Assembly: GCA_965227655.1 (NCBI GenBank) | Contig: OZ245765.1 | Span: 2,393,724-2,457,723 of the forward strand | DNA from: Rhodoglobus sp. | GTDB taxonomy: Bacteria; Actinomycetota; Actinomycetes; Actinomycetales; Microbacteriaceae | Direction: 5' to 3' | Length of the DNA stretch: 64,000 bases | In this document: positions 6,577 to 57,232 of the stretch, piece by piece | Layout: the number at the start of each line of letters is the position of its first letter | Position numbering within the stretch: the first letter of the stretch is position 1 | Notes under the pieces: generated by a model | Seen by the model: only the letters and a program-made list of their open reading frames with translations | Database searches by the model: none | What the model was told of the DNA's origin: nothing | Made by a program: the position numbers and the translations under genes

Positions 6577-7353
6577 CTAGGTCTGGCAGCGAGGGCACCA
6601 GTAGGTGTTGCGTAACTGGAGCGCGGTGTCGCCCAGCTCGCCGCGCTCCACGCGGGTGCCGCAGCGCAGGCACGCGCGGCCGTCCCGTCCGTAGACCCAC
6701 GACGTGTCGCCCCGCAGGTTGCCCGTGGTGGTGCGGGTCGACCGGTCTTTGTTCGCCTCGATGAGCTTCTTCGCGAGCGCGACCATGCGCTCGAGGTCAT
6801 CCACCTCGCCGACCGGACGCGTCGGAAGCACGCCGCGGAGGAAGCACAGTTCCGCGCGGTAGACGTTGCCGAGGCCGGCGAGGTTGCGCTGGTCGAGCAG
6901 AGCGAGGCCGATCTCGCGCTCGGGGTCGCTGCGGAGGTTCGCCACGGCGTCGGCCGAGTTCCAGTCGGGGCCGAGCAGGTCGGGGCCGAGGTATCCGACT
7001 ACCGTGTCTTCGTCGGCGGTGCGGACGACCTCGAAGAGCCCGAGTTCGAACCCCACGGCCGTCACGCTCTCGGTGGAGAGGATGGCGCGGGCCTTGAACT
7101 CCGGACGCCGCCATCGCTCGCCCGGCCGGTACACATGCCACACGCCCTCCATCTTGAGATGGCTGTGCAGCGTATATTCCCCCACGCGCATGAGCAGGTG
7201 CTTGCCGCGGCTGACCGTCTGGTGCACGGTCTCGCCCGCGAGGTCGACGGTCGCGAACGCGGGAACCCGGATGTCGCTGCGCGTGAGCACGCTCCCGTCG
7301 AGTGCGCCGCCGAGCAGCTTCGCCGCGCGGTAGACCGTGTCACCCTCAGGCAC
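6577..7353 (-). CDS. nei: Fpg/Nei family DNA glycosylase (endonuclease VIII-like)
   Basis: N-terminal (V/M)PEGDTV, SHLKMEG, LLDQRNLAGLGNVY H2TH, C-terminal Zn finger CLRC...CPRCQ; overlaps lhr. Confidence 0.93.
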   Translation of the reverse strand: MPEGDTVYRAAKLLGGALDGSVLTRSDIRVPAFATVDLAGETVHQTVSRGKHLLMRVGEYTLHSHLKMEGVWHVYRPGERWRRPEFKARAILSTESVTAVGFELGLFEVVRTADEDTVVGYLGPDLLGPDWNSADAVANLRSDPEREIGLALLDQRNLAGLGNVYRAELCFLRGVLPTRPVGEVDDLERMVALAKKLIEANKDRSTRTTTGNLRGDTSWVYGRDGRACLRCGTRVERGELGDTALQLRNTYWCPRCQT

Positions 7354-10300
7354 GGAGCCGCAGCCCCTGGGGCGTGGGTGCGAAGCCCGCCTCGGCGAGC
7401 AGGAGCCCGAGGGGCGAGCCGATCGAGAACTCGCCGTCCACGCGCTCGACGCGCAACTTTCCGAGGCGCGAGCGCACGGTGGCCGCGAGGGAGGCCGCCG
7501 CCGCGCGCAGCACCTGCTCCTCCGACGTGAAGGTGAGCAACGTCTTACCGCCGCGCTCGACGTAGAGCACGAGCATCCCGTCGACGAGGACGACGAGTGC
7601 GCCAGCCTTGCGGCCGGGGCGATGGCCGCGCTTGCCGGTGTCGGTCGATGCCGTGGCCTCGATCTCGGGCGTCGCGGGCCACGCGAGGGCAGCGCCGAAC
7701 GGGTTCGCCGGATCGGTGGCCGCGAGGGTGAGGGCCTCCAGCGCGGGTGCGGCCTCGGCATCCCGTGCGTAGCTGCGCAGCCGATCGACAGTCGCGCTCG
7801 TCGCGAACTGCGCGGCGCCGAGGCCCTCGACGAAGTACCCGCGACGCGCCCGGCCGATCTCCTCGAAACCGCTCAGCACCTTGTACGCGAGTGCGAAGCC
7901 GCCCCGGATGCCCTCGCTCACGACAGCGCCGCGAGTCACCACTCCGTGCCGCTCGAGCAGCGACTCAGCCATCGCCTTCGCCCGCACGGTCGTGTCGCCC
8001 TCGGCGAGCGGCAGCAGTGACCACCGCCCGCCACCCGTCGGAGGACCGGACTGGGCGACCCGCAGCGAACTCGACCGCCCGCGGTACGAGCGCGTGCGCG
8101 GTGTCGCCGCGGGCCCGCCGAGGTAGGAGCGCAGCGGCGAGAGGGTGTCGTTCGTGATGAGCCCGGCCCACACCAGCTCCCACAGGGCGGCGTTGAGGGC
8201 CTTGTCGTCGGTGCTGCCGATGGCCTGACCGAGCTGGCGGAAGAAGTAGGCGCCGCCCCCGGCCATGGCCTCGAGGATGCTCCGCTGCAGTTCCGTGGTC
8301 TCGTCGCCACTCGGCTCGGGCAGGGTGAGACGTGCGGTGTCGGCGAGGTGGAAGCTGACCCATCCGTCGCTGCCCGGCAGCACCCCGTTGCCCGACCAGA
8401 TGACCTCACCCGTGGTCGTGAGCTCGTCGAGCCAAGCGGGGGAGTAATTCGTGAGGCGCGCGGGGAAGACGAGGCTCTCCCACGCGCTCGCGGGCAGCGA
8501 GACCCCGGCGAGCTGGTCGATGACCTGCGCGAGGCCGTCGACGCCGCGCAGGGTGCCGCCCACCGACTGCCACGCGGGAAGGAAACGGCCGAGCGTTGCG
8601 ACGTCGACCGGCTCTACCTCCTGCCGGAGGGCCGCGAGCGATCGGCTTCGCAGGCGGCGCAGCACTTCGACCGAACACCACTCCGTGCCGCTCGACCCCG
8701 GCCGGAACTCGCCGTCGACGACGCGGCGGTCGGCGGCGAGACGCCGCAGGGTGTCGGTGACCACGGCGGTTCCGAGGCCGAAGCGAGTTGCCGCATCCTG
8801 CACGGTGAAGGGGCCGTGCGTGCGGGCGTAGCGGCTCACGAGGTCGCCCACGGGGTCGTCGACCGGCTCGATGAACGCGGCGGGAACCCCGATCGGCAGC
8901 GGTACTCCGAGTGCGTCGCGCAGGCGGGCCGCGTCCTCGACGGCGGCCCAGTGCAGCGTGCCGGCGATCGTGACGCGCAGGGCGCGATTGGCGCGCTGCA
9001 GGTGATCGAGCCACTCGGTGATCGAGCCCTGACCGCGGGCGTCATCCTCAACGTCGGCGGGGGCGACCGCGGTGCGCGCCACGAGCTCGTCGAGGGTCAG
9101 CGGCCCGAGCATCCTGAGCAGGTCGATCACACCCTCCGCATCGCGGGCTTTGCGCTCGGGCGTGAGGCGCTGCAGTTCGAGCTCGGTCTGCTCGAGCACG
9201 GCCGGATCGAGCAGCTCGCGCAGCTCGGCCCGGCCCAGCAGCTCGGCGAGGAGGGTGGGGTCGAGTGACAGTGCCGCAGCGCGGCGCTCCGCGAGCGGGG
9301 AGTCGCCCTCGTACATGAACGCAGCGACATATCCGAAGAGCAGAGAACGCGCGAACGGCGACGGCACCTCCGTCTCGGTCTCGACCATGCGCACCTTGCG
9401 CGTCTCCAGCTGGGTGGTGAGGGCGCTGAGGGCCGGCAGGTCATAGACATCCTGCAGAACCTCGCGCACGGTCTCCAGCACGATCGGAAATGTGGGGTAG
9501 CGGCGGGCAACATCCAGCAGCTGGGATGCCCGCTGCCGCTGCTGCCACAGCGGCGAGCGTCGTCCGGGGTCGCGGCGGGGCAGCAGCAGCGCCCTCGCTG
9601 CACACTCGCGGAATCGCGCGGCGAACAGGGCGGACCCTCCCACCTCCTCGGTGACTATCGCCTCGAGCTCTTCGCGCTCGAACGCGAATAGCTCGGCACC
9701 GGGTGGCTCCGCATCCGTGTCGGGGATGCGGACGACTATGCCGTCGTCGCCCGCCATGGCCGCGCCGTCGACACCGAGCCGATCGCGCACACGCGCCGTG
9801 ACGGCGAGGGCCCACGGCGCGTGCACGGGCATGCCGTACGGGGAATGTAAGACGACGCGCCAGTCGCCGAGCTCGTCGCGGAAGCGCTCGACCACGAGCG
9901 TCGTGTCGGTGGGAACTTGCCCGGTTGACGCCTTCTGCTCGGCAACGAGCGCGATGAGGTTGTTGGCAGCACGCTCGTCGAGGCCGATGTCGGCGAGCCG
10001 CCCGCGTACGTCGCCGCCGGAAGCGATCTCCCTGACGAACGACCCGATCGCCGCCCCGAGCTCGGCAGGTCTGCCCAGCCCGTCGCCTTTCCAGAACGGC
10101 ACCTTCCCCGGCTGCCCGAACGCCGGCGAGACGAGCACCTGGTCGTGCGTGATCTCCTCGATGCGCCAGCTCGTCGTGCCGAGCGCGAAGACGTCACCCA
10201 CGCGCGACTCGTAGACCATCTCCTCATCGAGCTCCCCGACGCGACGGCCGGGTGCGCCGGGAGTTGCCGCGGAGCCGACCATGAACACCCCGAACAGGCC

Positions 10301-11920
10301 GCGGTCGGGGATGGTTCCGCCCGACGTCACTGCGAGCCGCTGCGATCCGGGCCGACCGGTGATGGTGCCGCCCACGCGGTCCCACACGATGCGCGGCCTC
10401 AGCTCGGCGAACTCGTCGCTCGGGTAGAGACCGCTGAGGAGGTCGAGAGTAGCGTCGTAGGCGCTGCGGGGCAGTGTCGCGAACGGCGCGCTGCGGCGCA
10501 CGGTGTCGAACCACTCCTCCACATCGATGCCCTCGAGCGCCGTCGCTGCAACGGTCTGCTGCGCGAGCACGTCGAGCGGGTTCGCGGGCACCGCTATCGA
10601 CTCGATCTGGCCCGACTTCATGCGCTCGACGGCGACAGTCGTGTGGATGAGGTCGGTGCGGTGCTTCGGGAACAGCACGCCCTTCGATATCTCGCCGACC
10701 TGGTGACCGGCCCGCCCGATGCGCTGGAGCCCGGATGCCACAGACGGCGGTGACTCGACCTGGATCACCAGATCGACAGCACCCATGTCGATGCCCAGCT
10801 CGAGCGAGCTTGTCGCCACGACGCAGCGCAGACGGCCGGACTTCAGGTCGTCCTCGATGGTCGCCCGCTGTTCTTTCGAGACCGAGCCGTGGTGGGCTCG
10901 CGCGAGGAGGGGAGCCGCTCCCGCGGTCGCGCCGGCTTGTGCCATCATCTGGGCGGGTGGTGCGTCAGACCGCCCGGCCGGGACGAGCTCCATCCGCTCC
11001 TCGTAGATCTCGTTCAACCGCGCCGTGAGCCGCTCGGCAAGCCGCCGCGAGTTCGCGAACACGATGGTCGACCGGTGCTCGAGAATCTCGTCTACGATGC
11101 GCTCCTCGACGTGCGGCCAGATCGAACCCGTGGCCTCCGGTGACATGCCGGTATCGCCCACGCCCTCCCTCGGTGCGACGACTCCGGGCTCGGTCATGTC
11201 GTCCACGGGAACCACGACCGAGAGGTCGAACGTCTTGGCGGCGGGCGGCTGCACGATCGTCACGGGGGCTCGGCCCCCGAGGAAGCGCGCAACCTCCTCA
11301 AGCGGACGCACCGTGGCGGAGAGGCCGATGCGCTGTGCGGGGGTCGCGAGGAGAGCATCCAGTCGCTCGAGGGAGACCGCAAGGTGCGCGCCGCGCTTGG
11401 TGGCGGCGACGGCGTGCACTTCGTCGATGATGACCGTCTCGACCCCGAGGAGGGTCTCGCGCGCGGCCGACGTGAGCATGAGGTACAGCGACTCGGGTGT
11501 CGTGATGAGGATGTCGGGCGGCGTGCGCGCGAGCAGGCGCCTGTCGCCAGGAGTGGTGTCGCCCGACCGCACACCCACCGTGACGGACGGCACGGGAACC
11601 CCGAGGCGTCGGGCCGTCTGGGTGACGCCCACGAGCGGCGCGCGGAGATTGCGCTCGACGTCGACGCCGAGAGCCTTCAGCGGGGAGATGTAGAGCACAC
11701 GCGTGCGGTGCCGCGGATCATCCGGCGCGGGCGTCGACGCCAACTGGTCGATGGCCCACAAGAACGCCGCGAGAGTCTTGCCCGAGCCGGTCGGGGCCAC
11801 GACGAGCGCGTGCGAGCCCGACGACACGGCCTCCCACGCCCCGAGCTGTGCCGGGGTTGCCGCCGCGAAGGCGCCCGAGAACCACTCCCGCGTGGCGGGG
11901 GAGAAGCGGTCGAGCACCAT
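7346..11920 (-). CDS. lhr: Lhr ATP-dependent helicase (long form)
   Basis: APTGSGKT, DEVH, SAT, AHHGS, LELGIDMG, QRIGRAGH, Lhr C-terminal region; lhr-nei pairing known in actinobacteria. Confidence 0.95.
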   Translation of the reverse strand: MVLDRFSPATREWFSGAFAAATPAQLGAWEAVSSGSHALVVAPTGSGKTLAAFLWAIDQLASTPAPDDPRHRTRVLYISPLKALGVDVERNLRAPLVGVTQTARRLGVPVPSVTVGVRSGDTTPGDRRLLARTPPDILITTPESLYLMLTSAARETLLGVETVIIDEVHAVAATKRGAHLAVSLERLDALLATPAQRIGLSATVRPLEEVARFLGGRAPVTIVQPPAAKTFDLSVVVPVDDMTEPGVVAPREGVGDTGMSPEATGSIWPHVEERIVDEILEHRSTIVFANSRRLAERLTARLNEIYEERMELVPAGRSDAPPAQMMAQAGATAGAAPLLARAHHGSVSKEQRATIEDDLKSGRLRCVVATSSLELGIDMGAVDLVIQVESPPSVASGLQRIGRAGHQVGEISKGVLFPKHRTDLIHTTVAVERMKSGQIESIAVPANPLDVLAQQTVAATALEGIDVEEWFDTVRRSAPFATLPRSAYDATLDLLSGLYPSDEFAELRPRIVWDRVGGTITGRPGSQRLAVTSGGTIPDRGLFGVFMVGSAATPGAPGRRVGELDEEMVYESRVGDVFALGTTSWRIEEITHDQVLVSPAFGQPGKVPFWKGDGLGRPAELGAAIGSFVREIASGGDVRGRLADIGLDERAANNLIALVAEQKASTGQVPTDTTLVVERFRDELGDWRVVLHSPYGMPVHAPWALAVTARVRDRLGVDGAAMAGDDGIVVRIPDTDAEPPGAELFAFEREELEAIVTEEVGGSALFAARFRECAARALLLPRRDPGRRSPLWQQRQRASQLLDVARRYPTFPIVLETVREVLQDVYDLPALSALTTQLETRKVRMVETETEVPSPFARSLLFGYVAAFMYEGDSPLAERRAAALSLDPTLLAELLGRAELRELLDPAVLEQTELELQRLTPERKARDAEGVIDLLRMLGPLTLDELVARTAVAPADVEDDARGQGSITEWLDHLQRANRALRVTIAGTLHWAAVEDAARLRDALGVPLPIGVPAAFIEPVDDPVGDLVSRYARTHGPFTVQDAATRFGLGTAVVTDTLRRLAADRRVVDGEFRPGSSGTEWCSVEVLRRLRSRSLAALRQEVEPVDVATLGRFLPAWQSVGGTLRGVDGLAQVIDQLAGVSLPASAWESLVFPARLTNYSPAWLDELTTTGEVIWSGNGVLPGSDGWVSFHLADTARLTLPEPSGDETTELQRSILEAMAGGGAYFFRQLGQAIGSTDDKALNAALWELVWAGLITNDTLSPLRSYLGGPAATPRTRSYRGRSSSLRVAQSGPPTGGGRWSLLPLAEGDTTVRAKAMAESLLERHGVVTRGAVVSEGIRGGFALAYKVLSGFEEIGRARRGYFVEGLGAAQFATSATVDRLRSYARDAEAAPALEALTLAATDPANPFGAALAWPATPEIEATASTDTGKRGHRPGRKAGALVVLVDGMLVLYVERGGKTLLTFTSEEQVLRAAAASLAATVRSRLGKLRVERVDGEFSIGSPLGLLLAEAGFAPTPQGLRLRA

Positions 11921-20840: not shown

Positions 20841-21707
20841 CTACTCGGCTCCGGGCTTGGCCAGGAAGATGTTCTTCGCGGGCGGCGGGGACTGGATGGC
20901 CGTGGCATCCGTCACGACGGACGCCCCCGCGATGAACTCCCGCAGTTCGGAGTCGTGCACGATCTTCGACGGGTGCGGACCCGCGGCCAGCAGGCGCGCC
21001 ATCCACGAGTACGGCAGCTCCTCCGACGAGCCCACCATGACGAGGTTGCCGAACCGCTTGCCCTTCAAGATCTGGGTCTCGGCGAGCACGGCGACCGTGG
21101 GGAGAACGGACGAGATGGTCGCGGCCTGCGAGCGCGCAAACGCGAGGCCGGGCCCGTCGGCGACATTGGCGAGGATGATCCCGCGGGGCGACAGCAGCGC
21201 GACGGCGAGCCTGTAGAACTCGATGCTCGTGACGTGGGCGGGGGTTCGGGCGCCGCTGAACACGTCGACGACGACGAGGTCGACGGTGCCGTGCAGACCC
21301 TGTGGCAGCTTGCCGAGCACTTCGCGAGCGTCCCCGTGGCGGATGCGGATCTGGGCTTTCTTCGACCACGGCAGTTCTGTGCGCACGAGGTCGACGATGT
21401 CGGGCTCGATCTCGACAACCTGCTGCCGTGATCCGGGGCGGGTGGCCTCGATGTAGCGGGGGAGCGTGAGGGCGCCCGCGCCGAGGTGCACGGCGGTGAT
21501 GGGCTCGCCGGGCATCCCGATCTGGTCGATCACATGCCCCATGCGCTGGATGTACTCGAAGAACAGGTCGGCGGGATCGTCGAGGTTCACGTGCGACTGC
21601 GGCGTGCCGTTCACGGTGAGGGTGAAGGCGCCGGGAACCCAGCGGTCGGCAGTGATGGTGGCGAGGTGACCACTGCCGCTCAGTACCCGGCTCGGATTCT
21701 CGCTCAT
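20841..21707 (-). CDS. Spermidine synthase-like SAM-dependent methyltransferase fold protein
   Basis: QSHV, VHLGAGALTLPRY, VEIEPD, RHGDAR, DLVVVDVF. Confidence 0.85.
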   Translation of the reverse strand: MSENPSRVLSGSGHLATITADRWVPGAFTLTVNGTPQSHVNLDDPADLFFEYIQRMGHVIDQIGMPGEPITAVHLGAGALTLPRYIEATRPGSRQQVVEIEPDIVDLVRTELPWSKKAQIRIRHGDAREVLGKLPQGLHGTVDLVVVDVFSGARTPAHVTSIEFYRLAVALLSPRGIILANVADGPGLAFARSQAATISSVLPTVAVLAETQILKGKRFGNLVMVGSSEELPYSWMARLLAAGPHPSKIVHDSELREFIAGASVVTDATAIQSPPPAKNIFLAKPGAE

Positions 21708-21857
21708 GCTCCGAGGCTAGCCGACCGCGTGGCGGAGCCTCGGTGGCCGACGAGCGCGCAAGTTCGATACAACTTCTTCGTAGTAGTTGCTTAAATCTCA
21801 ACATTGTGGGGAGTATGGAGAGGATCCGAATTTCGACGAGGAATGAGGTAGGGGAAC

Positions 21858-22094
21858 ATGCAAACGATCGCTGAAGCATGGATTTTGGGCGAGGACTGGG
21901 GTATCGGCACCGATGTGTGGCCGTCGCCCATCGAGCCGTCGGGCTCGTACCTGAACCTTCAGGCGCCTCAGATGCCCGGCATGAGCAACTTCACGCTGGT
22001 GGACTGTGCTACGGCATCCGCCGTGTGCATGTCCACCTACTGCACGACCAGACTGGGCTCCTGTATAGGGACCAAGGGAGTCTGCGGCTGCTGA
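21858..22094 (+). CDS. Putative lanthipeptide precursor (LanA), 78 aa
   Basis: Purine-rich RBS (GAGGTAGGGGAAC-ATG); N-half has no Cys; residues 43-78 carry 6 Cys and 10 Ser/Thr; 67 bp upstream of LanM on the same strand. Confidence 0.85.
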   Translation: MQTIAEAWILGEDWGIGTDVWPSPIEPSGSYLNLQAPQMPGMSNFTLVDCATASAVCMSTYCTTRLGSCIGTKGVCGC

Positions 22095-22161
22095 GCCACT
22101 TGCCGCTCCCCGGCCAGACCCGCGAGTGTCATGTGAGCCTGCGTCGGGGAGGTGAGGGCGC

Positions 22162-25002
22162 GTGACTCCTCCGAGTGGGTCGCTCAGTGCCTCCGACCGC
22201 GAGCGTGCGCGGTTGGTGCCGCCCCCCATCTTCGTCGCCGCGGAGAAGCATTCGGAGTCGCTCGAAGCAATGGCGGCGCACACGATTACCGCGCGATGGA
22301 TTGAACGCGCCATGCGGGGGCTCGGGCCAGGTGCCGACCTTCCCTATGACCACGTCAGGGCTGCCCTGAGCGCGGAACTCACGGGCATGATGATGCGTTC
22401 GCTCGTCCTGGAGCTCGCTCTGGCGAACCGCGTCGGTGTCTTACCCGGCACTCTCCACGAGCAATATCGTTCGTTCTTCGGTGATCGATCGCTGGATGCC
22501 CTCATCGATTACTTGTCCCGGAAGTATCCGGCCCTTGCTGCTCTTGTCGACCATCGGGTCGCGTCGGCGGTCCGCTACTGCGATGTGGTTGAAGGCCTGT
22601 GGCGTGACGATCGCGCGGCCCTCTCGCCTGGATTGGTCGAGGATGGCGCCGAGATCATCGACCTCGAACCTCTCGGCGACACCCATGAGCACGGAATTCG
22701 CTCGGGCAAAGTGCACCTTTCTTCCGGTGAGGCCGTTGCCTTCAAGCCGTCCAGCGCTCGGCCACAAGGCTTTCTGACACGGTTCGGTGCTATCGCGCTG
22801 TCAGGCCGGAACATCCTGCAGGTCCCTAAGACCGTGGCCAGAGGCTCGCACCACTGGCAGAGATGGGAGAGCGGCGACGACCTCGTTGACGAGGATTCCG
22901 CGGTAGCCGCACAGACGTTCGGTCGCTGGCTCGCGATCGCCCATTTGACCGGAACAACGGATCTTCACTACGAGAACTTCATCGTGGGTCGTGCCGGTAT
23001 CCTCGCCGTCGATCTCGAAACGGTCGCCTCTGCGCAGCTGAGAATCGACGATGCACCTGTGGATAGTCGCGATGATCTAGCGAGAACCCTGATTCTGCCT
23101 TTCCGCATGGGCGGTGTCGACAACGTGCCGGGTCCGAACTGGGGCGCTTGGGGCGGTGATCATCGGTCGGCTGCGGGATTCCCCCGCTTCATGCTCGACA
23201 ACGACGAGACACCGCACATCAGGCTGCGGCAAGTGCTCGTCGATGCGGAGGAGCGCAGCCAGGTGGATCTCGCGGAGGTCCGGCGATCGATTGCCGCGTA
23301 TCCGCTCTTCCGCGAAGGCTTCATCGAGGCGATGCGCTCGGCGCGGGCGAACGCCACAGCCTTGTCTGCTCTGATCGGGTCGCAGGGTGGCATGAGATCG
23401 CGGGTGGTCCTGCGCGCGACGCAGACCTATTACGAGTCGATAGCGAAGGCCACACATCCGGTCGAATTGCTCAGTCGCCGTCGATTTCGAGCCGCGCTCG
23501 AAGGCAATCTGCCCGTCGCCCACCTCGAGGGTCTGATACCGGCCGAGCTCGCCTTACTCTCGCGGGGTGAGATCCCGCGTTTCCATGCCAAGTTCGACCA
23601 GTCGTCCGTTCGGGGTGTCGCCCTGGACTCGCCTGCGACCGTGATCCGGCGTCGGATGGACGCTTTGGTCAACGGCGGGGACCACATGCTCACGCTGTTC
23701 GAGCAGGACATCGAGGCACACGTGGTCGCGTTCAGCTTCTTGGGCGAGCTGCCCGCAGCCGCGGAAACGCGCGAGGCTGAGGAGAGTCTCCCGCCGGCGT
23801 CGGCAGCAATCGCGGCGAGCGTGGCCGCGATGCGTGTTGTGGGTAGCTCGTGGCCGACGAATCCGCGCACGTGGAGCAACGTGAACCCCACGATGTCGGG
23901 CTTATGGGCCCGAGAGAGATCCATGCCCAACTTCTACTCCGGAATGCCCGGAGTATACGTGTCGCTGAGCATGGCGAATCAGGCGGAAGCGGGAAGAGTC
24001 CCTCCCGAGTTCGTCACTGGCCTGGCGCACGAGATTCTGAACCTGTCTGTTGAGCCACCGAAGGACCTTGCGAATCCAGGAGCCTTCGCGGGATACGGCG
24101 GTGTCGCCTACGCCCTCGGGAGAGCCGTTCTCGCGGAGGATGTGACTCTCGAGGACGGGGTGGCGGGCTTGGCCAGTCTGAGCCGCACGATCGAGGAGAG
24201 CGTGCGGGAGGACGCCTGCTTTGACCTTATCGCTGGAGCGGCAGGCGCGGTCGCCGTATTCGCGGAACTCGTGCGCTGCGGTGTCTTGTCGGTCGAGAAC
24301 GGCGCCGAGGTCGTCGAACCCGCGATCAACCACCTGAAACTGAATGCGATGGAACATCCGGACGGACTGGTCTGGCCCAACGTTCTCTGGGACGGTGATT
24401 GGGTGAGCGGGCTCAGCCACGGGGGTGTAGGCATTGGCTGGGCGCTGCGGCGTTGGGCTCGCGTCTCGGGGGACTCCGAAGCCGAACGTATTGCCAGCGC
24501 TGCCATCGGCGTCCAGGACGGGCTCCGTGATGGGCAGTTCCACTGGCGGGAAAAGAAGCCGACCGCGCGCGTGCCCGACGAGAATCAGACATCCTGGTGC
24601 CACGGGTCGCAGGGGGTTCTGTTGTCGGTGCTCGACGATGAACCGCTCGATGCCCAGGGTTTGGCGCAGTTCGCCACGGACTCTCATGCGGTGCCGCTGC
24701 CGAAGTTGTCGGGCCTGTGCCATGGTGCGGCCGGTCAGCTCGTCTTGCTCCAGCGCATGCATGACCGTGCGAGGGCCCTCGGGCTGACGATTCCCGAACC
24801 ACTCTCCGCGTCGATTCAGGAGATCACCGAGAGTTTGACAGCGACAGTGTCGCGTAGGCGCGTCGTCGGAGTGGATGCTCCCGACTTGTGGAGCGCATCT
24901 CTGATGACCGGCCAAGCCGGGATCGTGCATGCGCTCTCAGTGGTTGGATCACTGGATTCCTCCCGTGAGCCGACGGTGCTCCTCCTCGAGTTGGCTCGAT
25001 GA
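22162..25002 (+). CDS. lanM: Class II lanthipeptide synthetase LanM (DUF4135 dehydratase + LanC-like cyclase)
   Basis: GDTH, FKP, TDLHYEN, VDLET, RVVLRATQTY, ELALLSRGEIPRF; cyclase GLSHG, WCHG, LCHG, SLMTGQAGI; GGAGGT RBS. Confidence 0.93.
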   Translation: MTPPSGSLSASDRERARLVPPPIFVAAEKHSESLEAMAAHTITARWIERAMRGLGPGADLPYDHVRAALSAELTGMMMRSLVLELALANRVGVLPGTLHEQYRSFFGDRSLDALIDYLSRKYPALAALVDHRVASAVRYCDVVEGLWRDDRAALSPGLVEDGAEIIDLEPLGDTHEHGIRSGKVHLSSGEAVAFKPSSARPQGFLTRFGAIALSGRNILQVPKTVARGSHHWQRWESGDDLVDEDSAVAAQTFGRWLAIAHLTGTTDLHYENFIVGRAGILAVDLETVASAQLRIDDAPVDSRDDLARTLILPFRMGGVDNVPGPNWGAWGGDHRSAAGFPRFMLDNDETPHIRLRQVLVDAEERSQVDLAEVRRSIAAYPLFREGFIEAMRSARANATALSALIGSQGGMRSRVVLRATQTYYESIAKATHPVELLSRRRFRAALEGNLPVAHLEGLIPAELALLSRGEIPRFHAKFDQSSVRGVALDSPATVIRRRMDALVNGGDHMLTLFEQDIEAHVVAFSFLGELPAAAETREAEESLPPASAAIAASVAAMRVVGSSWPTNPRTWSNVNPTMSGLWARERSMPNFYSGMPGVYVSLSMANQAEAGRVPPEFVTGLAHEILNLSVEPPKDLANPGAFAGYGGVAYALGRAVLAEDVTLEDGVAGLASLSRTIEESVREDACFDLIAGAAGAVAVFAELVRCGVLSVENGAEVVEPAINHLKLNAMEHPDGLVWPNVLWDGDWVSGLSHGGVGIGWALRRWARVSGDSEAERIASAAIGVQDGLRDGQFHWREKKPTARVPDENQTSWCHGSQGVLLSVLDDEPLDAQGLAQFATDSHAVPLPKLSGLCHGAAGQLVLLQRMHDRARALGLTIPEPLSASIQEITESLTATVSRRRVVGVDAPDLWSASLMTGQAGIVHALSVVGSLDSSREPTVLLLELAR

Positions 25003-25009
25003 GGTTCTC

Positions 25010-25768
25010 CTAGCCGCCCTGCGTGAAACTCTTGAGCACCTGCACGATTGTCGCGCCGCCGCTCAGGGTGTCGGGAACCTCGGTGCGCACCGGGCCCACG
25101 CCGTCGGCGAGCCATGTCGTCGCGTTGATGACGAGGCCCTCCACGCCGAGCTCCGGCAGCGAGATCGTGAGCGTCTGCGCGAGCTTGCGCGCCGAGTAGC
25201 TGCCCGCGGGGACGGTCACATCCTCGAGGCCGGCTCCTGCGATCGAGAAGTCGACGACCTCGTTGACCGTGGACGCGCTCGTCACGACCGTGGCCTCGAT
25301 GGTTCCCGTCTGGGGTGTGCCCGCCTCGAACTCGGCGTCGCTCGGCCACGTCATCGTGCCGCTCTTGACGGTGACGGTGCTGCCGCCCGCGGTCGGAATC
25401 GACTGGAAGGGCACGCTCAGCGACCCGTCCGCCGCGAACACGTAGTCGATGGTGTCGACGAGCTGCGGCTGCGATCCGTCGTCCCACACGAATGTGCGCT
25501 CGATGGTCACGCGCGCGCCGTCGCCCTCGGGTACGACCGAGGTCATGACCTCGGTGTCGGTCACCGTCGACCCGGTGCCGTAGTCGATCGAGTAGACCCA
25601 CGTGTTGCCCTCGCCCACGGGGTAGTAGATGCTCGCGATGCTGGCGCCGGCCGACCCCGTCGGGGCGCCCGTCGTCGCACCGGTCGGGTCGCTCGTAGCG
25701 GCGGGGCCGGCGGGGGTGCATCCGGCGAGCAGGGCGACGGTCACTACGGCAAGCGCTGCGAGTCTCAT
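25010..25768 (-). CDS. Hypothetical lipoprotein, beta-rich (DUF3108-like is a guess)
   Basis: Lipobox LLAGC; YYPVGEGNTWVY; EDVTVPAGSY; TWLADGVGPVRTE. Confidence 0.8.
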   Translation of the reverse strand: MRLAALAVVTVALLAGCTPAGPAATSDPTGATTGAPTGSAGASIASIYYPVGEGNTWVYSIDYGTGSTVTDTEVMTSVVPEGDGARVTIERTFVWDDGSQPQLVDTIDYVFAADGSLSVPFQSIPTAGGSTVTVKSGTMTWPSDAEFEAGTPQTGTIEATVVTSASTVNEVVDFSIAGAGLEDVTVPAGSYSARKLAQTLTISLPELGVEGLVINATTWLADGVGPVRTEVPDTLSGGATIVQVLKSFTQGG

Positions 25769-25794: not shown

Positions 25795-26442
25795 TCACGC
25801 GAGGGTAGGGAAAGCGCTGGACAGTACGCCGTCCACCGCGGCGATACTCGCGGCCAGGCGCTGCTCGCGCGGGCCCGTGATGAGCCGCCACGGCTCACCG
25901 CGGCGCTCGAGCTCCTCGACGAACCAGCGCTGCATGTCGTCGCGGAAGCTCTCGCCATCACGGATGCCGTCCTGTTCGAAGGGCACCCCGACCACGTCGG
26001 CGAGCAGATAGAGGGCGCGCGGCGGGGAGACCGGCACCGCCTCCAGGGCCGCGGTCGACGCGTCGCCGAGGTAGCGCCGTTCCCACAGCTGGGTGGCGAA
26101 CGCGTCGGTGTCGCAGAACAGCACGGGCGATCCGGATGCGGCGGCCTCATCCTCGAGGCGCTGCTGTTCGAGTGCGATCACCGCGAAGTCGTGTGGCCCC
26201 CACTCTGCGCTCGCGGCCTCGCCGTCTGCGGCGACGGATCCCTGTCGCTCGAGCAGTACCTCGGTGTACTCACGTCCGTACTCGGCAACCCACTTCGTGT
26301 CGGCCCAGATGCCGCCGATGGCACGGTAGCGGCCGACGAGTTCGCGAGCGAGCGTGGTCTTGCCCGTCGATTCGGAGCCCACGATCACGACCCTCGCGGT
26401 GAGGTCTGCGCGCTCGTCGGGGGTGAGTTTCAGCCAGTCCAT
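25795..26442 (-). CDS. NadR-type ribosylnicotinamide kinase-like P-loop protein (AAA_28)
   Basis: VIVGSESTGKTTL, EYGREY, LFCDTD, PFEQDGIR. Confidence 0.85.
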   Translation of the reverse strand: MDWLKLTPDERADLTARVVIVGSESTGKTTLARELVGRYRAIGGIWADTKWVAEYGREYTEVLLERQGSVAADGEAASAEWGPHDFAVIALEQQRLEDEAAASGSPVLFCDTDAFATQLWERRYLGDASTAALEAVPVSPPRALYLLADVVGVPFEQDGIRDGESFRDDMQRWFVEELERRGEPWRLITGPREQRLAASIAAVDGVLSSAFPTLA

Positions 26443-26667
26443 CGCCGCTTATAGCCCATTCTCAGAATCAGGTCAAGAAATAAGTTGCATAGGCGCGTCG
26501 TTACGTCCTATAGTTGATCCTTGCGCTCCCAGACAACTCATGCCGTCATATTGTGGACAGCTGGCGCGCCCCGAGTATAGCGGCGGGGCAAATCTCTCTT
26601 GGGTTCTGGTGAGCATTTCATTACCGACAGTTATGGTCCACTCCACGGGCCCACGGAGGTTATTTCC

Positions 26668-29600
26668 TTGGCTGCTGCGCGCACTGCGTCCACCAAAAAG
26701 TCCCCCAAGAACGGCCGCAACGCTTCGCGGCTTTCTTTCGCCAAGATCACCGACACCCTGACGGTTCCCGATCTGCTCGCACTGCAGACCGAGAGCTTCG
26801 ACTGGTTGGTCGGCAACGACATCTGGAAGCAGCGCGTCACGGAGGGTGTGGCCCAGGGCCGCACCGACCTGCCGTCCCGCAGCGGCCTCGATGAGATCTT
26901 CGAGGAGATCTCTCCCATCGAGGACCTCGGCGAGACCATGCAGCTCTCGTTCACGGGCCCGGAGCTCGAAGAGCCGAAGTACACGATCGACGAGTGCAAG
27001 GAGCGCGGCAAGACCTTCGCCGCCCCGCTGTACGTCAACGCCGAGTTCATGAACCACCTCACCGGTGAGATCAAGACCCAGACGGTCTTCATGGGCGACT
27101 TCCCGCTCATGACCGAGAAGGGCACGTTCATCATCAACGGCACCGAGCGTGTCGTCGTGTCCCAGCTCGTGCGTTCGCCCGGTGTCTACTTCGACCGCAC
27201 CCCCGAGAAGCTGTCTGACAAAGACATCTACTCCGCTCGCGTCATCCCGAGCCGTGGCGCATGGCTCGAGTTCGAGATCGACAAGCGCGACCAGGTCGGT
27301 GTGCGTATCGACCGCAAGCGCAAGCAGAGCGTCACCGTGTTCCTCAAGGCCCTCGGCCTCACGAGCGAGCAGATCCTCGAGGAGTTCAAGGGCTTCCCGT
27401 CGATCGAGCTCACCCTCGAGAAGGACTCCATCCTCACCAAGGAAGAGGCCCTCAAGGACATCTACCGCAAGCTGCGTCCGGGCGAGCAGGTTGCCGCCGA
27501 GGCCGCGCGCGCGCTGCTCGACAACTTCTACTTCAACTCGAAGCGCTACGACCTCGCGAAGGTCGGCCGTTACAAGATCAACCGCAAGCTGGGCCTCGAC
27601 ACCGACATCAAGCAGTCGGTTCTCACCATCGAGGACATCATTGCGACGATCAAGTACCTGGTCGCCCTGCACGACCCGTCGTCGAGCTACGTCTCCACGC
27701 AGGAGAACGGCTTCCAGACCATCAAGGGCCTCCGCGATGGCAAGAAGGTGGATGTGCGTCTCGACGTGGACGACATCGACCACTTCGGCAACCGTCGCAT
27801 CCGCGCCGTCGGCGAGCTCATCCAGAACCAGGTCCGCACCGGTCTCTCCCGCATGGAGCGCGTCGTTCGCGAGCGCATGACCACGCAGGACATCGAGGCG
27901 ATCACCCCGCAGACCCTGATCAACGTGCGCCCCGTCGTCGCCGCGATCAAGGAGTTCTTCGGCACGAGCCAGCTGTCGCAGTTCATGGACCAGAACAACC
28001 CGCTCGCGGGCCTGACCCACAAGCGTCGACTCTCGGCCCTCGGCCCCGGCGGTCTGTCGCGTGAGCGTGCCGGCGTCGAGGTTCGTGACGTCCACCCGTC
28101 GCACTACGGCCGCATGTGCCCCATCGAGACCCCGGAAGGCCCCAACATCGGCCTCATCGGTTCGCTCGCATCGTTCGCGCGCATCAACGCGTTCGGGTTC
28201 ATCGAGACCCCGTACCGCCGCGTCGTGAACGGCAAGGTCACCGACAAGATCGACTACCTCACCGCATCGGAAGAGGACGACTTCATCGTCGCCCAGGCGA
28301 ACGCCCCGCTCACCGCGGACGCGCACTTCGCCGAGCCCCGCGTGCTCGCCCGTAAGAAGGGCGGCGAGGTCGACCTGATCCCGACCGAGCAGATCGGCTA
28401 CATGGATGTCTCGCCGCGCCAGATGGTGTCGGTGGCAACGTCCCTCATCCCGTTCCTCGAGCACGACGACGCAAACCGCGCCCTCATGGGTGCGAACATG
28501 CAGCGCCAGGCAGTTCCGCTGCTGCGTTCGGAGAGCCCGCTCGTCGGTACCGGCATGGAGGGCTTCGCGGCCATCGACGCCGGCGACGTCATCACCGCCG
28601 ACAAGGCCGGTGTCGTCTCCGAGGTCTCGGCAGACTCGATCACCATCCAGCTCGACGAGGGCGGCACGCAGGACTACTACCTGCGCAAGTTCGACCGCTC
28701 GAACCAGGGCACGAGCTACAACAACCGGGTCATCGTCAGCGCGGGCGACCGCGTCGAGGCCAGCCAGGTGCTCGCCGACGGTCCCGCTACGGAGAACGGC
28801 GAGCTCGCGCTCGGCAAGAACCTCCTCGTGGCGTTCATGCCGTGGGAGGGTCACAACTTCGAAGACGCGATCATCCTGAGCCAGAACCTCGTGAAGGACG
28901 ACACCCTCTCCTCGATCCACATCGAGGAGTACGAGGTGGATGCCCGCGACACGAAGCTCGGCAAGGAGGAGATCACCCGTGACCTCCCCAACGTCAGCCC
29001 CGAGCTGCTCGCCGACCTCGACGAGCGCGGCATCATCCGCATCGGCGCGGAGGTTCGCCCCGGCGACATCCTCGTCGGCAAGGTCACGCCCAAGGGTGAG
29101 ACCGAGCTGAGCGCCGAGGAGCGCCTGCTGCGCGCCATCTTCAACGAGAAGAGCCGCGAGGTTCGCGACACCTCGCTCAAGGTTCCTCACGGTGAAGAGG
29201 GAACGATCATCGCGGTCAAGGAGTTCAATGCGGAGAACGACGACGAGCTCGGCTCGGGCGTCAACCAGCGCGTTGTGGTCTACATCGCCCAGAAGCGCAA
29301 GATCACCGCGGGCGACAAGCTCGCCGGTCGTCACGGCAACAAGGGCGTCATCTCGAAGATCCTTCCGGTGGAAGACATGCCGTTCATGGCAGACGGCACC
29401 CCCGTCGACGTCATCCTGAACCCGCTCGGTATCCCCGGCCGCATGAACTTCGGCCAGGTCCTCGAGACCCACCTCGGCTGGGTTGCGAAGCAGGGCTGGG
29501 AGGTCGACGGTTCCCCGAAGTGGGCAAACACGCTGCCCGACCACGCCCGTAGCGCCGCTCCCGGCACGAAGGTCGCGACCCCCGTGTTCGACGGTGCCCT

Positions 29601-30192
29601 CGAGAGCGAGATCGAGGGACTCCTGGAGTCCACGATCCCGACCCGCGATGGCGAGCGGATGATCGGCGCGAGCGGAAAGGCCCGTCTGTTCGACGGCCGT
29701 TCCGGCGAGCCGTTCCCCGAGCCCGTCTCGGTCGGATACATGTACATCCTGAAGCTCCACCACCTGGTGGACGACAAGATCCACGCCCGGTCGACCGGCC
29801 CCTACTCCATGATCACTCAGCAGCCGCTGGGTGGTAAGGCGCAGTTCGGTGGCCAGCGATTCGGTGAGATGGAGGTCTGGGCGCTCGAGGCATACGGTGC
29901 CGCGTACGCGCTCCAGGAGCTCCTCACGATCAAGTCGGACGACATCCTCGGACGCGTCAAGGTGTACGAGGCCATCGTCAAGGGCGAGAACATCCAGGAG
30001 CCTGGTATCCCCGAGAGCTTCAAGGTCCTGATCAAGGAGATGCAGTCGCTGTGCCTGAACGTGGAGGTGCTGTCTGCTGACGGCTCCACGGTCAACCTGC
30101 GCGACACGGATGACGAGGTCTTCCGTGCAGCGGAGGAGCTGGGCATCAACATCTCCACGCGCTTCGAGTCGTCGTCGATCGACGAGATCTAA
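26668..30192 (+). CDS. rpoB: DNA-directed RNA polymerase beta subunit
   Basis: [57 protein letters not shown]; TTG start after GGAGGT. Confidence 0.99.
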
Positions 30193-30238
30193 GCCGCCTC
30201 TCACTCATTTCTGAAGCTTTCTAAGAGAGAAGAACACA

Positions 30239-34120
<3,882 letters not shown>

Positions 34121-34366: not shown

Positions 34367-35266
34367 GTGTTCGCCTACCTACCCGAAAGGGGCGAAGCGT
34401 CCGGCTATGCCGTCGTAACCCCCCGTTTTGCCTGCCTACTGGGCTCCGATGCCACGGCCGAGATCGCCCGATCGATCTTCTGGCTGCTTGATGGCCCGGA
34501 TGCCCAGCTCCAGGATGCCCTCGGCACCCTGTCCCACATCGACAAGGTCGACCGCTTCGCGATCGTCGAACTGCTCGACGCCTCTGCCACCGAGCTGCGG
34601 GTTTCCGCGCTGGGAGAGGTGAGCGTCGGCATCGACGGCGTTACCACTGCCCGCGCATCCGGCTCAGTGTTGACGACCTCGGCCACGGGCGTGCGCGCCT
34701 CGTGGTTCTCACTCGAGGGCGGTCGCCCTGAGGGCGACCTGCTGCCCCTGCACCGCGGCATCGCCCGTGCGACCGCCCTCGTCACCGGCGGGCCGTCGGC
34801 GCCGAGCGTCGACGCTGCCGAGTTCGCGGTCGACGCCGAGCCCGAGCCCGAGCCTCAGGCTGAGCAGCCCGAGACTCAGCCCGACGTTGCACCCGAACCC
34901 GAGCAGCAGGCGGCGCCCGAGGCCCCGACCGGCCGCTGGGTGCTGCACCTGCCCGACGGATCCGAGGTCGAGGCGAGTAGAACCATCATCATCGGCCGCG
35001 ACGAGTGGGCGGCGCCCGACGACGGCGACCTCATCCGTCACGTCTCGGTGCCCTCGCCGAAGAAGCAGATCTCGGGCGATCACCTCGAGCTCGCCCTCGT
35101 CGGCGACGAGCTGGTGGCGCGTGATCTCGACTCCACGAACGGCACCATCGTCATCACCCAGGAGCAGCCACCGCGACTTCTCCACAACGGTGAGACGACC
35201 CCGCTGCAGGCAGGCGATATCCTCGATCTCGGGGAGAGCCTGCAGATCGTGGTGAGCAACCGCTAG
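34367..35266 (+). CDS. FHA domain protein
   Basis: C-terminal IIIGR...ISGDH...DLDSTNGT; acidic Pro linker; TAATGT 6 nt before GTG. Confidence 0.88.
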   Translation: MFAYLPERGEASGYAVVTPRFACLLGSDATAEIARSIFWLLDGPDAQLQDALGTLSHIDKVDRFAIVELLDASATELRVSALGEVSVGIDGVTTARASGSVLTTSATGVRASWFSLEGGRPEGDLLPLHRGIARATALVTGGPSAPSVDAAEFAVDAEPEPEPQAEQPETQPDVAPEPEQQAAPEAPTGRWVLHLPDGSEVEASRTIIIGRDEWAAPDDGDLIRHVSVPSPKKQISGDHLELALVGDELVARDLDSTNGTIVITQEQPPRLLHNGETTPLQAGDILDLGESLQIVVSNR

Positions 35267-35302
35267 CTAGGGCCCCCGCTTCACGACGGGAGGGGCACCG
35301 CC

Positions 35303-36430
35303 ATGGCACGCGCCACGCTGACCCCACCCGTCCTGCCGGGCTTCACGTACGTGCGCCCGCTCGGCACGGGCGGCTTCGCCGACGTGTTCCTGTACGAGCA
35401 GGACATGCCGCGGCGCGTGGTGGCCGTGAAGGTGCTCCTCAACGACGCCATCAACCCCGAGGTGCTGAGGGCGTTCAACGCCGAGGCCGACATCATGGCG
35501 CGGCTGAGCGCGCATCCGTCGATCGTCACCATCTACCAGGCGAGCATCTCGGCCGACGGCAGGCCGTTCCTCGCCATGGAGTACTGCCCAGACACGATGA
35601 GCGCCCGGTACCGCAAGGCGCCGCTGGGGGTCGCCGAGGTGCTCGACGCGGGGGTGCGGATCGCCGCGGCCCTCGAGACCGTGCACCGCTCGGGGGCCTT
35701 ACACCGCGACATCAAGCCGTCGAACATCCTCATCACCTCCCTCGGCATCCCCGTGCTCGCCGACTTCGGTATCGCCGCGGGCTTCGGCATCGAGAACGCG
35801 GGCCCCGACCTGCTCGCGCTCTCGGTGCCATGGAGTTCGCCCGAGGTGCTCTCGGAGAAGGTGAACGGTTCGGTGCCGAGCGAGGTGTGGAGCCTTGGCG
35901 CGACGCTCTACACGTTGCTCGCGGGCCGCAGTCCGTTCGAGCTCGCCGACCGGGTGAAGAACACGCGCGACCAGCTCTCGGCACGCGTCGCGAAAGCGCA
36001 CTACACCCCGCTGGCCCGCACGGATGTGAGCCAGAAGCTCGAGGGCATCCTCGCCCGCAGCATGGCCAAGGAGCCGTCGCAGCGGTACGCGTCGATGCAC
36101 GCAATGGCGGAAGACCTGCGGTGGGCGCAGTACGAGCTGGGTCTGCCGCCGACAGCGCTCGAGGTGGCGAGTCCCGAGTGGGCGGCGGCCTCCACCGTGA
36201 GCTTCGCGGATTCGGCGGCGCGCGGGCCGATCATCACGACAGTCAACAAGGACTCGCGCAGGGCAGCGCGCGCGCAGACTGTGCTCTCGCGCCTGGACGG
36301 CGACCGCGAGGGCGTCACGGCCGGATCGAAGCGGCAGCGGGGCTGGAAGGTCCCCGTGCTCGTCGGTGTCGGTGCCGTCATCGTGCTGGGCATCGTCGCC
36401 GTCACCCTCCGCCTGCTCGGAGTGCTCTGA
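35303..36430 (+). CDS. Hanks-type Ser/Thr protein kinase with C-terminal TM
   Basis: GTGGFADV, VAVK, HRDIKPSN, ADFG, PWSSPE, SEVWSLG. Confidence 0.95.
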   Translation: MARATLTPPVLPGFTYVRPLGTGGFADVFLYEQDMPRRVVAVKVLLNDAINPEVLRAFNAEADIMARLSAHPSIVTIYQASISADGRPFLAMEYCPDTMSARYRKAPLGVAEVLDAGVRIAAALETVHRSGALHRDIKPSNILITSLGIPVLADFGIAAGFGIENAGPDLLALSVPWSSPEVLSEKVNGSVPSEVWSLGATLYTLLAGRSPFELADRVKNTRDQLSARVAKAHYTPLARTDVSQKLEGILARSMAKEPSQRYASMHAMAEDLRWAQYELGLPPTALEVASPEWAAASTVSFADSAARGPIITTVNKDSRRAARAQTVLSRLDGDREGVTAGSKRQRGWKVPVLVGVGAVIVLGIVAVTLRLLGVL

Positions 36431-36431
36431 C

Positions 36432-42338: not shown

Positions 42339-42360
42339 CGAACATCCGAGAGGACACCGA

Positions 42361-54118: not shown

Positions 54119-54121
54119 CGG

Positions 54122-56025: not shown

Positions 56026-56111
56026 GCGTGAGTGGTCTCCTTCCGGTTGCTCGGGGCTGACCCTCTCCGTTTCGATCTTCGCATAGAGCGTCCGATTGGG
56101 CATACAGAGAA

Positions 56112-57179: not shown

Positions 57180-57199
57180 CCCCCCTTTCGGGTCGAAAG

Positions 57200-57227: not shown

Positions 57228-57232
57228 TCAAC

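What the first reader, a model, noticed from the sequence alone, without database searches (positions are those of the whole stretch)
21858..22094. Candidate new lanthipeptide: 6-Cys core behind a Trp/Pro-rich, non-canonical leader
Seen: MQTIAEAWILGEDWGIGTDVWPSPIEPSGSYLNLQAPQMPGM-SNFTLVDCATASAVCMSTYCTTRLGSCIGTKGVCGC. All 6 Cys (C50, 57, 62, 69, 76, 78; spacing Cx6Cx4Cx6Cx6CxC) and 10 Ser/Thr lie in residues 43-78, and the peptide ends in CGC. Known: LanM substrates usually have acidic helical leaders (ELxxxEL) ending in GG/GA/GS for C39 peptidase cleavage. Here the N-half has 3 Trp and 5 Pro, no ELxxxEL, only an internal GS at 29-30, and a YLNLQ motif that looks more like class I FxLD or class III LxLQ leader motifs. 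Inference: a densely cross-linked (up to 6 rings) lanthipeptide of a precursor family I do not recognise.
Basis: partly seen in the sequence, partly recalled or inferred. Interest (0 to 1): 0.88.

Follow-up and report, generated by a model that had tools for sequence, protein, structure and literature searches.

The report
Orphan class II lanthipeptide precursor gene
This 78-codon gene is real and conserved; it very probably encodes the substrate of the lanthionine synthetase (LanM) gene right after it, so it is a rare new family within a well-known class of ring-bridged bacterial peptides, not a new kind of system.

Summary
It lies 67 nt upstream of a 946-aa LanM (22162-25002) that has both Pfam domains and intact catalytic and zinc motifs.

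Cys density alone is weak evidence: 2% of six-frame ORFs in this window match it. Two other results show the gene is real:
- The only close LanM homologue in public data (57% identity, locus L001) has a homologous 79-aa ORF in the same position. Residues 1-14 and the 33-residue Cys/Ser/Thr core are conserved; the linker between them is variable.
- A roughly 92%-identical strain (run X7) differs at 11 listed sites inside the ORF. All 11 are synonymous (P about 1e-7).

The peptide matches no Pfam or NCBIfam precursor family. It has no other relative among about 15 billion proteins.

lanA and lanM form a 3.3-kb island of lower GC. A related strain lacks it. It carries no transporter, protease or immunity gene.

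The motif reading does not: YLNLQ, W21 and the internal GS are not conserved. The leader is also acidic (net charge -5), as usual. Ring formation is untested.

Verdict: new member of a known kind, moderate interest.

The parts
21727..25034 (+). lanA-lanM island: a two-gene cassette that varies between strains
   Evidence: A contig in run X2, with flanks about 85-87% identical to the window, joins 21726 to 25035. It skips 3308 nt and has 624 other letters in their place. Island GC is 0.637 against 0.686 and 0.699 in the flanks. GC3 is 0.78 for lanA and 0.74 for lanM, against 0.86-0.95 for neighbouring genes. No flanking repeats and no tRNA gene.
21845..21854 (+). Shine-Dalgarno-like purine run (GAGGTAGGGG) upstream of the lanA ATG
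   Evidence: Read directly from the sequence. L001 has AAGGGG at a similar distance. No sigma-70-type promoter was found on the + strand.
21858..22094 (+). lanA: 78-aa precursor peptide gene, stop codon included
   Evidence: It is 65% identical to the homologue at L001:920-1159. 11 of 11 differences in run X7 are synonymous.
21858..21899 (+). Conserved N-terminal leader motif, residues 1-14 (MQTIAEAWILGEDW); inferred LanM recognition helix
   Evidence: Against L001: 8 identical codons, 5 synonymous, 1 non-synonymous. The only helix AlphaFold2 predicts in the leader is residues 4-9, at low confidence.
21900..21992 (+). Variable leader linker, residues 15-45, with conserved islands PSPIE (22-26) and P37-x-M39-x-G41; the leader/core boundary is unknown, probably near G41-F45
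   Evidence: Against L001: 4 identical codons, 6 synonymous, 21 non-synonymous. There is no GG/GA site.
21993..22091 (+). Conserved core, residues 46-78: TL[VI]DCATASAxCMSTYCTTxLGxCIGTKxVCGC, with 6 conserved Cys and 8 conserved Ser/Thr
   Evidence: Against L001: 13 identical codons, 15 synonymous, 5 non-synonymous.
22095..22161 (+). lanA-lanM intergenic stem-loop; its 3' arm holds the lanM Shine-Dalgarno-like GGGGAGGTGAGGG
   Evidence: RNA fold -34.3 kcal/mol, z -1.55. A stem-loop at the same position but with a different sequence occurs in L001 (-29.7 kcal/mol, z -2.16). A role in attenuation or translational coupling is inferred.
22162..25002 (+). lanM: 946-aa class II lanthipeptide synthetase
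   Evidence: Pfam DUF4135 (residues 122-476, E 2.6e-38) and LANC_like (590-937, E 1.7e-25). TIGR03897 scores 232 bits, below its 304-bit cutoff. Motifs align to CylM and LicM2: GDTH, FKPS, TDLHYEN, VDLE, RATQTY, SHG, SWCHG, LCHG. 27 of 35 listed differences in X7 are synonymous.

Best explanation
lanA (21858-22094) and lanM (22162-25002) form a minimal class II lanthipeptide operon carried on a 3.3-kb horizontally acquired island in a Microbacteriaceae genome. Shown: the peptide gene is real, conserved and under purifying selection; LanM is full-length with all catalytic and zinc-ligand motifs; and the pair is conserved as a unit in the only related locus. Inferred mechanism: LanM binds the acidic leader, most likely through the conserved N-terminal amphipathic segment (residues 2-14), perhaps with PSPIE. 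Its DUF4135 domain phosphorylates conserved core Ser/Thr (T46, T52, S54, S59, T60, T63, T64, T72) and eliminates the phosphate, giving Dha/Dhb. Its zinc-dependent LanC-like domain adds the six conserved Cys to form (methyl)lanthionine rings. T46-C50 is nearly forced. Likely others are T52 or S54 to C57, S59 or T60 to C62, T63 or T64 to C69, and T72 to C76 or C78. The sixth Cys needs an overlapping ring, a disulfide, or stays free. Proteins encoded outside the island must remove the leader (near the conserved PxMxG, with no GG/GA site) and export the product. The product is probably a secreted antimicrobial or signalling peptide; its activity is unknown.
For: The ORF and its features are confirmed. 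The next gene is a LanM with both domains and conserved catalytic motifs. The only close LanM homologue, P0003 (57% identity), has a homologous 79-aa ORF directly upstream. Conservation follows the pattern expected of a leader motif, a variable linker and a core. DNA homology between the two loci starts exactly at the lanA ATG. 11 of 11 X7 differences in lanA and 27 of 35 in lanM are synonymous. The leader carries net charge -5 and the core +1 or 0. A stem-loop lies between lanA and lanM in both loci. The island is missing from a related strain and has lower GC3.
Against: There is no biochemical evidence of dehydration or cyclisation. There are no expression data: three host RNA-seq runs gave 0 reads. 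The island has no LanT/C39 transporter, protease, immunity or regulator gene, and none was seen among the annotated genes of the window, so the cluster might be silent or incomplete. The leader has no recognised class II motif and no defined cleavage site. LanM scores below the TIGR03897 cutoff. The family rests on only two sequence clusters plus one near-identical strain variant.
Confidence: 0.8

Rival explanations
1. It is a genuine LanM substrate, but the mature product has fewer than six thioethers: some Cys form disulfides or stay free, as reported for other class II peptides that carry a disulfide. This refines the main explanation rather than excluding it.
For: Only one conserved Ser/Thr (T72) lies between C69 and C76/C78, so local N-to-C ring closure cannot serve both C-terminal Cys. 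S68 is Ala in L001. L001 has a seventh Cys at position 45.
Against: There are 8 conserved Ser/Thr for 6 conserved Cys, so six rings remain possible on counting alone if rings overlap.
Confidence: 0.35
2. The leader is a highly diverged member of the W-motif leader group shared by mersacidin/lichenicidin-type (TIGR03898) and actinopeptin (DUF6229) precursors, so this is not an independent leader type.
For: The nearest, still distant LanM relatives (24-28% identity) sit beside TIGR03898 or DUF6229 precursors. Those leaders share X[VLIA]XXW[LR]X and XP[AV]GX motifs (PMC13509491). The window peptide has A5-E-A-W8-I and P27-S-G29.
Against: There is no HMM hit even at E<=10. hhalign against six such precursors gives probability 0.1. 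The residue after W is Ile, not L/R. P-S-G is not conserved in L001, where it reads S-A-T. The TxTxEC core motif is absent.
Confidence: 0.2
3. The cassette is a silent or decaying remnant: because it lacks export, protease and immunity genes, it makes no mature product in this host.
For: The island holds only two genes. The membrane-protein gene that overlaps the lanM stop codon in L001 has no counterpart in the window. No expression data exist.
Against: Both genes are intact. Substitutions against the 92% strain are overwhelmingly synonymous, and the island sits at the same locus in that strain. Both points indicate selection for function.
Confidence: 0.12
4. It is a chance ORF in GC-rich DNA and not a gene.
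For: 2% of six-frame ORFs in the window are equally Cys-dense. The peptide has no database family.
Against: A homologue sits beside the homologous lanM. 11 of 11 changes are synonymous in this frame and 0 of 11 in the overlapping frames. The ORF has a Shine-Dalgarno-like stretch.
Confidence: 0.01

Closest known systems
Mersacidin/lichenicidin-type class II precursors (NCBIfam TIGR03898)
   Same: Single-polypeptide LanM chemistry and an acidic leader. The leader has a Trp-centred N-terminal segment: RAWKDP in the L002 and L006 precursors, AEAWIL here. These precursors are partners of the LanMs most similar to this one.
   Different: No TIGR03898 hit at E<=10 and hhalign probability 0.1. There is no conserved P[AV]G, no TxTxEC lipid II motif and no adjacent C39-ABC transporter, which L002 does have. 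LanM identity is only 24-28%.
Actinopeptins (DUF6229/PF19740 class II precursors of Actinomycetota; PMC13509491)
   Same: An actinobacterial class II system, often with a simple lanA-lanM core. The LanM has the classic CHG zinc motif. The leader has a [VLIA]xxW element.
   Different: No PF19740 hit. The core is much longer and richer in Cys (6 Cys in 33 residues, against short cores ending in CC). LanM identity is about 25%.
Actagardine/michiganin A group (michiganin comes from Clavibacter, also Microbacteriaceae). The comparison rests on my recollection of the published sequences, not on a tool result.
   Same: Class II peptides of high-GC Actinobacteria with a C-terminal Cys-x-Cys (CAC there, CGC here). 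In actagardine that motif closes overlapping C-terminal rings.
   Different: The 19-21-residue core with the CTLTxEC motif has no counterpart here. No sequence similarity was detected in any search.
Lacticin 481-type class II precursors (NF040664) with ELxxxxGG/GA leaders and LanT(C39) processing
   Same: LanM-dependent modification and an acidic leader.
   Different: No (E/D-8)(L/M-7) motif, no GG/GA cleavage site and no LanT; no HMM hit.

Membership tests
Class II lanthipeptide system (LanA + LanM) | A single synthetase with an N-terminal DUF4135 dehydratase domain and a C-terminal LanC-like cyclase domain | tested here: met
   PF13575 covers residues 122-476 (profile positions 1-377 of 378) and PF05147 covers 590-937. 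TIGR03897 scores 232 bits, below its 304-bit cutoff, so this is a divergent member.
Class II lanthipeptide system (LanA + LanM) | Kinase/lyase catalytic residues and Cys-Cys-His zinc ligands are conserved | tested here: met
   Alignment to CylM (5DZT) and LicM2 (6ST5) shows GDTH, FKPS, TDLHYEN, VDLE, RATQTY, SHG, SWCHG (C813) and LCHG (C853/H854). All are invariant in P0003. Which CylM residues are catalytic is taken from my own knowledge.
Class II lanthipeptide system (LanA + LanM) | An adjacent, co-oriented short ORF with a leader and a C-terminal core rich in Ser/Thr and Cys | tested here: met
   lanA ends 67 nt before lanM. The same arrangement and a homologous peptide occur in L001.
Class II lanthipeptide system (LanA + LanM) | Dehydration of Ser/Thr and formation of thioether rings in the product | not testable with these tools
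   This needs co-expression and mass spectrometry.
Mersacidin/lichenicidin family (TIGR03898) | Match to the family HMM; leader motifs X[VLIA]XXW[LR]X and XP[AV]GX; TxTxEC core motif | tested here: not met
   No hit at E<=10 and hhalign probability 0.1. AEAWI is only a near match. PSG is not conserved. The core contains no Glu.
Actinopeptins (DUF6229) | PF19740 leader domain | tested here: not met
   No Pfam hit at E<=10 for either homologue, whereas the L004 and L005 precursors carry PF19740.
Double-glycine leader / LanT(C39)-processed class II peptides | [quoted passage not shown] | tested here: not met
   No conserved GG/GA/GS, and GS29-30 reads AT in L001. No C39 or ABC gene lies in the island or among the annotated neighbours.
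Nif11 / nitrile-hydratase-like leader precursors | Match to the Nif11 or NHLP leader models | tested here: not met
   No NCBIfam or Pfam hit at E<=10.
   YLNLQ reads YKKVE in the homologue. The enzyme is a LanM: the class III and IV models score only 32 and 54 bits, on the cyclase domain alone.
Two-component lantibiotic | Two distinct lanA genes, usually with two lanM genes | tested here: not met
   The 3.3-kb island and L001 each hold one lanA and one lanM.

The most novel reading that the evidence does not exclude
This is a self-contained, mobile two-gene lanthipeptide cassette. LanM recognises its substrate through a previously undescribed N-terminal Trp-containing helix (AEAWILGEDW), far from the core. 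The product has a new hexa-thioether topology, including interlocked C-terminal CGC rings, and is matured and exported entirely by host housekeeping functions.
Probability: 0.3. Interest if true: 0.55.

Novelty: new member of a known kind. Interest (0 to 1): 0.4.

Why it matters
If it is expressed and modified as predicted, the peptide would add a new scaffold to the class II lanthipeptides: a 33-37-residue core with up to six rings. Its LanM is no more than 28% identical to any other except one. Its leader matches no known model. That would be useful for natural-product discovery and for studying how LanM enzymes recognise leaders. The 3.3-kb two-gene size makes it unusually easy to test by heterologous expression. 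It does not change any concept: thousands of class II precursors are already catalogued (3002 in PMC7268733), and new families are reported regularly (for example the actinopeptins, PMC13509491).

Tried and rejected
- Peptide against 5.8 billion protein clusters: it found only itself.
- Exhaustive phmmer against 1.84 billion representatives: only itself plus two 1400-aa Thr/Ser/Gly-rich repeat proteins (P0010, P0011). I rejected these as compositional matches.
- Profile of the two homologues: only the same two peptides.
- Genome contigs, scanned with the LanM alignment and then the peptide alignment: nothing.
- Metagenome contigs: one hit, L003. It is a chance WILGEDW in an unrelated long ORF with no LanM, so I rejected it.
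- Plasmid tblastn: no peptide hit, and only LanMs at 25% identity or less.
- Pfam and NCBIfam at E<=10: no hit for either peptide.
- hhalign against TIGR03898 and DUF6229 precursors: no relationship.
- Literature string searches for CMSTYC, WILGEDW and CIGTKG, and the stored supplements of PMC7268733: no hit, but the precursor table there is truncated, so this negative is only partial.
- RNA-seq runs of the host label: 0 reads, so no expression evidence either way.
- Island-flanking direct or inverted repeats, tRNA genes, Rfam families, sigma-70 promoter and intrinsic terminator scans: nothing relevant.
- AlphaFold2 on the peptide: pLDDT 42, uninformative apart from a short helix at residues 4-9.

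Full report
**Observation.** Every count is correct: six Cys at 50, 57, 62, 69, 76 and 78; ten Ser/Thr in residues 43-78; three Trp; five Pro; GS at 29-30; YLNLQ at 31-35; and a CGC end. A purine-rich Shine-Dalgarno-like run (GAGGTAGGGG, 21845-21854) precedes the ATG.

Cys density alone does not exceed chance in this 69% GC window. Twelve of 563 six-frame stop-to-stop segments of at least 60 aa contain at least 6 Cys within 29 residues.

**The neighbouring gene.** A 946-aa ORF (22162-25002, +) starts 67 nt downstream.
- It has a full-length DUF4135 dehydratase domain (E 2.6e-38) and a full-length LANC_like cyclase domain (E 1.7e-25).
- It matches TIGR03897 (LanM) end to end at 232 bits, below that model's 304-bit cutoff. 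It is therefore a divergent LanM.
- In alignments to CylM and LicM2 it keeps GDTH, FKPS, TDLHYEN, VDLE and RATQTY in the dehydratase half, and SHG, SWCHG and LCHG (the zinc ligands) in the cyclase half. Which of these residues are catalytic comes from my own knowledge of CylM.

**Is lanA a real gene?** Two independent lines say yes.

First, this LanM has just one close relative among 5.8 billion protein clusters. That is P0003, at 57% identity, on a 5-kb Logan contig (L001). Everything else is at 28% or below. L001 carries a 79-aa ORF directly upstream of its lanM. This ORF is 65% identical to the window peptide. DNA similarity between the two loci begins exactly at the lanA ATG. Conservation has the structure expected of a RiPP precursor:

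| Residues | Identical codons | Synonymous | Non-synonymous |
|---|---|---|---|
| 1-14 | 8 | 5 | 1 |
| 15-45 | 4 | 6 | 21 |
| 46-78 | 13 | 15 | 5 |

Second, sequencing run X7 holds a roughly 92%-identical copy of lanA-lanM at the same chromosomal locus. All 11 differences listed inside lanA are third-position synonymous changes. None of them is synonymous in the two overlapping alternative ORFs. Only 23.5% of possible substitutions are synonymous, so P is about 1e-7. In lanM, 27 of 35 listed differences are synonymous. About four further differences at 22028-22069 lie near contig ends and could not be read.

**Anatomy of the precursor.**
- Conserved leader elements are MQT[IL]AEAWILGEDW (residues 1-14), PSPIE (22-26) and P37-x-M39-x-G41.
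- The core is TL[VI]DCATASAxCMSTYCTTxLGxCIGTKxVCGC. It has six invariant Cys and eight invariant Ser/Thr.
- Residues 1-41 carry net charge -5 in both homologues. The rest is +1 or 0. That is the usual pairing of an acidic leader with a neutral or cationic core.
- YLNLQ, W21, P27, P40 and the internal GS are not conserved.
- There is no GG/GA site, and the cleavage point is unknown.
- AlphaFold2 gives a disordered peptide (pLDDT 42) with one short helix at residues 4-9.
- Both loci have a stem-loop between lanA and lanM at the same position but with different sequence. Its 3' arm contains the lanM ribosome-binding site (z -1.55 and -2.16). I read this as a possible attenuator or translational-coupling element. 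That is inference only.

**Genomic context.**
- The host is a Microbacteriaceae bacterium. Its RpoC falls in a cluster at 90% identity or more with Conyzicola nivalis. Its flagellin clusters with proteins labelled Leifsonia, Rhodoglobus and Salinibacterium.
- lanA-lanM lie between a spermidine-synthase-like gene (20841-21707, -) and a DUF3108-like gene whose product starts with a lipoprotein-like signal sequence (25010-25768, -). This is 1.6 kb upstream of rpoB.
- In run X2, a contig from a related strain joins 21726 to 25035, with 624 unrelated letters in place of 3308 nt. The pair is therefore an island that varies between strains.
- Island GC is 0.637 against 0.69-0.70 in the flanks. GC3 is 0.74-0.78 against 0.86-0.95 for neighbouring genes. 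L001 has 0.61 GC.
- These figures fit horizontal acquisition. No repeats or tRNA mark the borders.
- The island contains no transporter, protease, immunity, regulator or tailoring gene. None was seen among the annotated genes of the window.
- In L001, a gene for a membrane protein overlaps the lanM stop codon (ATGA). It has no HMM match and no counterpart in the window.

**Comparison with known families.**
- Neither homologue hits any Pfam or NCBIfam model, even at E<=10.
- The distant LanM relatives sit next to TIGR03898 (mersacidin/lichenicidin-type) precursors in L002 and L006. They sit next to DUF6229 precursors in L004 and L005.
- The DUF6229 precursors were recently named actinopeptins. 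According to that paper they share the leader motifs X[VLIA]XXW[LR]X and XP[AV]GX with mersacidin-like peptides (PMC13509491).
- The window peptide's A5-E-A-W8-I is a near match to the first motif. Its P-S-G is not conserved. Profile-profile comparison shows no relationship (hhalign probability 0.1).
- Exhaustive phmmer against 1.84 billion representatives found no further relatives. Nor did a two-sequence profile search, two genome-contig scans, one metagenome scan or a plasmid tblastn.
- No paper in the library contains the core strings. The stored but truncated RODEO precursor table does not contain them either.

**Mechanism.**
- Shown: a conserved, selected precursor gene is paired with an intact LanM.
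- Inferred from the established LanM mechanism: LanM binds the leader, most likely through the conserved N-terminal helix. It phosphorylates core Ser/Thr and eliminates the phosphate, then adds Cys in a zinc-dependent step to give thioether rings.
- T46-C50 is nearly forced for C50, because T46 is the only conserved Ser/Thr N-terminal to it.
- Only T72 lies between C69 and C76/C78. Six rings would therefore need an overlapping or reversed ring. Otherwise one or two Cys are disulfide-bonded or free.
- Leader removal and export must use genes outside the island. The activity of the product is unknown.

**Verdict.** This is a real class II lanthipeptide precursor candidate of an orphan family, and a new member of a known kind. 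Only about one third of LanAs have GG leaders, and about 3000 class II precursors were already catalogued in 2020 (PMC7268733). An unrecognised leader and core is therefore moderately interesting, not highly surprising. Interest is 0.4.

Noticed in passing
window 26599-34120: rpoB (26599-30192) and rpoC (30239-34120) lie 1.6 kb downstream of the lan island. The island sits in a stretch of accessory genes just upstream of the RNA polymerase operon, probably by coincidence.
   Followed up: partly
window 34367-47110: A co-oriented cluster: an FHA-domain protein, a Ser/Thr protein kinase (35303-36430), a 1990-aa protein with Big_9 and cadherin-like domains (36366-42338), a MoxR-type AAA_3 ATPase (42361-43326) and a DUF58 protein (43323-44702). 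The ORFs after these gave no Pfam hit.
   Followed up: partly
window about 52800-63500: A probable flagellar gene cluster. The flagellin at 57289-58437 is in a 90% cluster with Leifsonia, Rhodoglobus and Salinibacterium flagellins, so the host is probably a motile member of the Microbacteriaceae. The other genes were judged only from their N-terminal sequences.
   Followed up: partly
runs X1-X3, X11-X17: The runs that hold this window carry an organism label that also has a 210-Gb Hi-C library and RNA-seq libraries (TRANSCRIPTOMIC RNA-Seq cDNA). The bacterium is therefore probably a cobiont or contaminant of a eukaryote sample. The same samples hold a second, roughly 85-87%-identical strain that lacks the lan island.
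   Followed up: partly
L001 242-571 and 4060-4998: The only related locus sits in a different context. Upstream is a 109-aa protein with weak ribbon-helix-helix / TraY-like similarity (E 0.047). Downstream, a membrane-protein gene overlaps the lanM stop codon. It has no HMM hit, but its N-terminus reminds me of FtsX/MacB-type permeases (from memory only). It may be this family's exporter or immunity protein, and the window lacks it.
   Followed up: partly
L002 5363-5890; L006 3076-3523; L004 3764-3958; L005 3808-3993: The distant LanM hits carry uncharacterised precursors: two pairs of TIGR03898-type peptides, and two DUF6229 'actinopeptin' peptides from metagenomes. L002 also has a C39-ABC transporter and MacB/FtsX transporter genes next to its lanM.
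   Followed up: partly
window 7346-11920 (-): A 1524-aa Lhr-type helicase with its full set of winged-helix domains and a weak AlkZ-like match.
   Followed up: no
window 25795-26442 (-): A NadR-like AAA_28 protein between the island and rpoB. It is a singleton at 90% identity among about 15 billion proteins.
   Followed up: no
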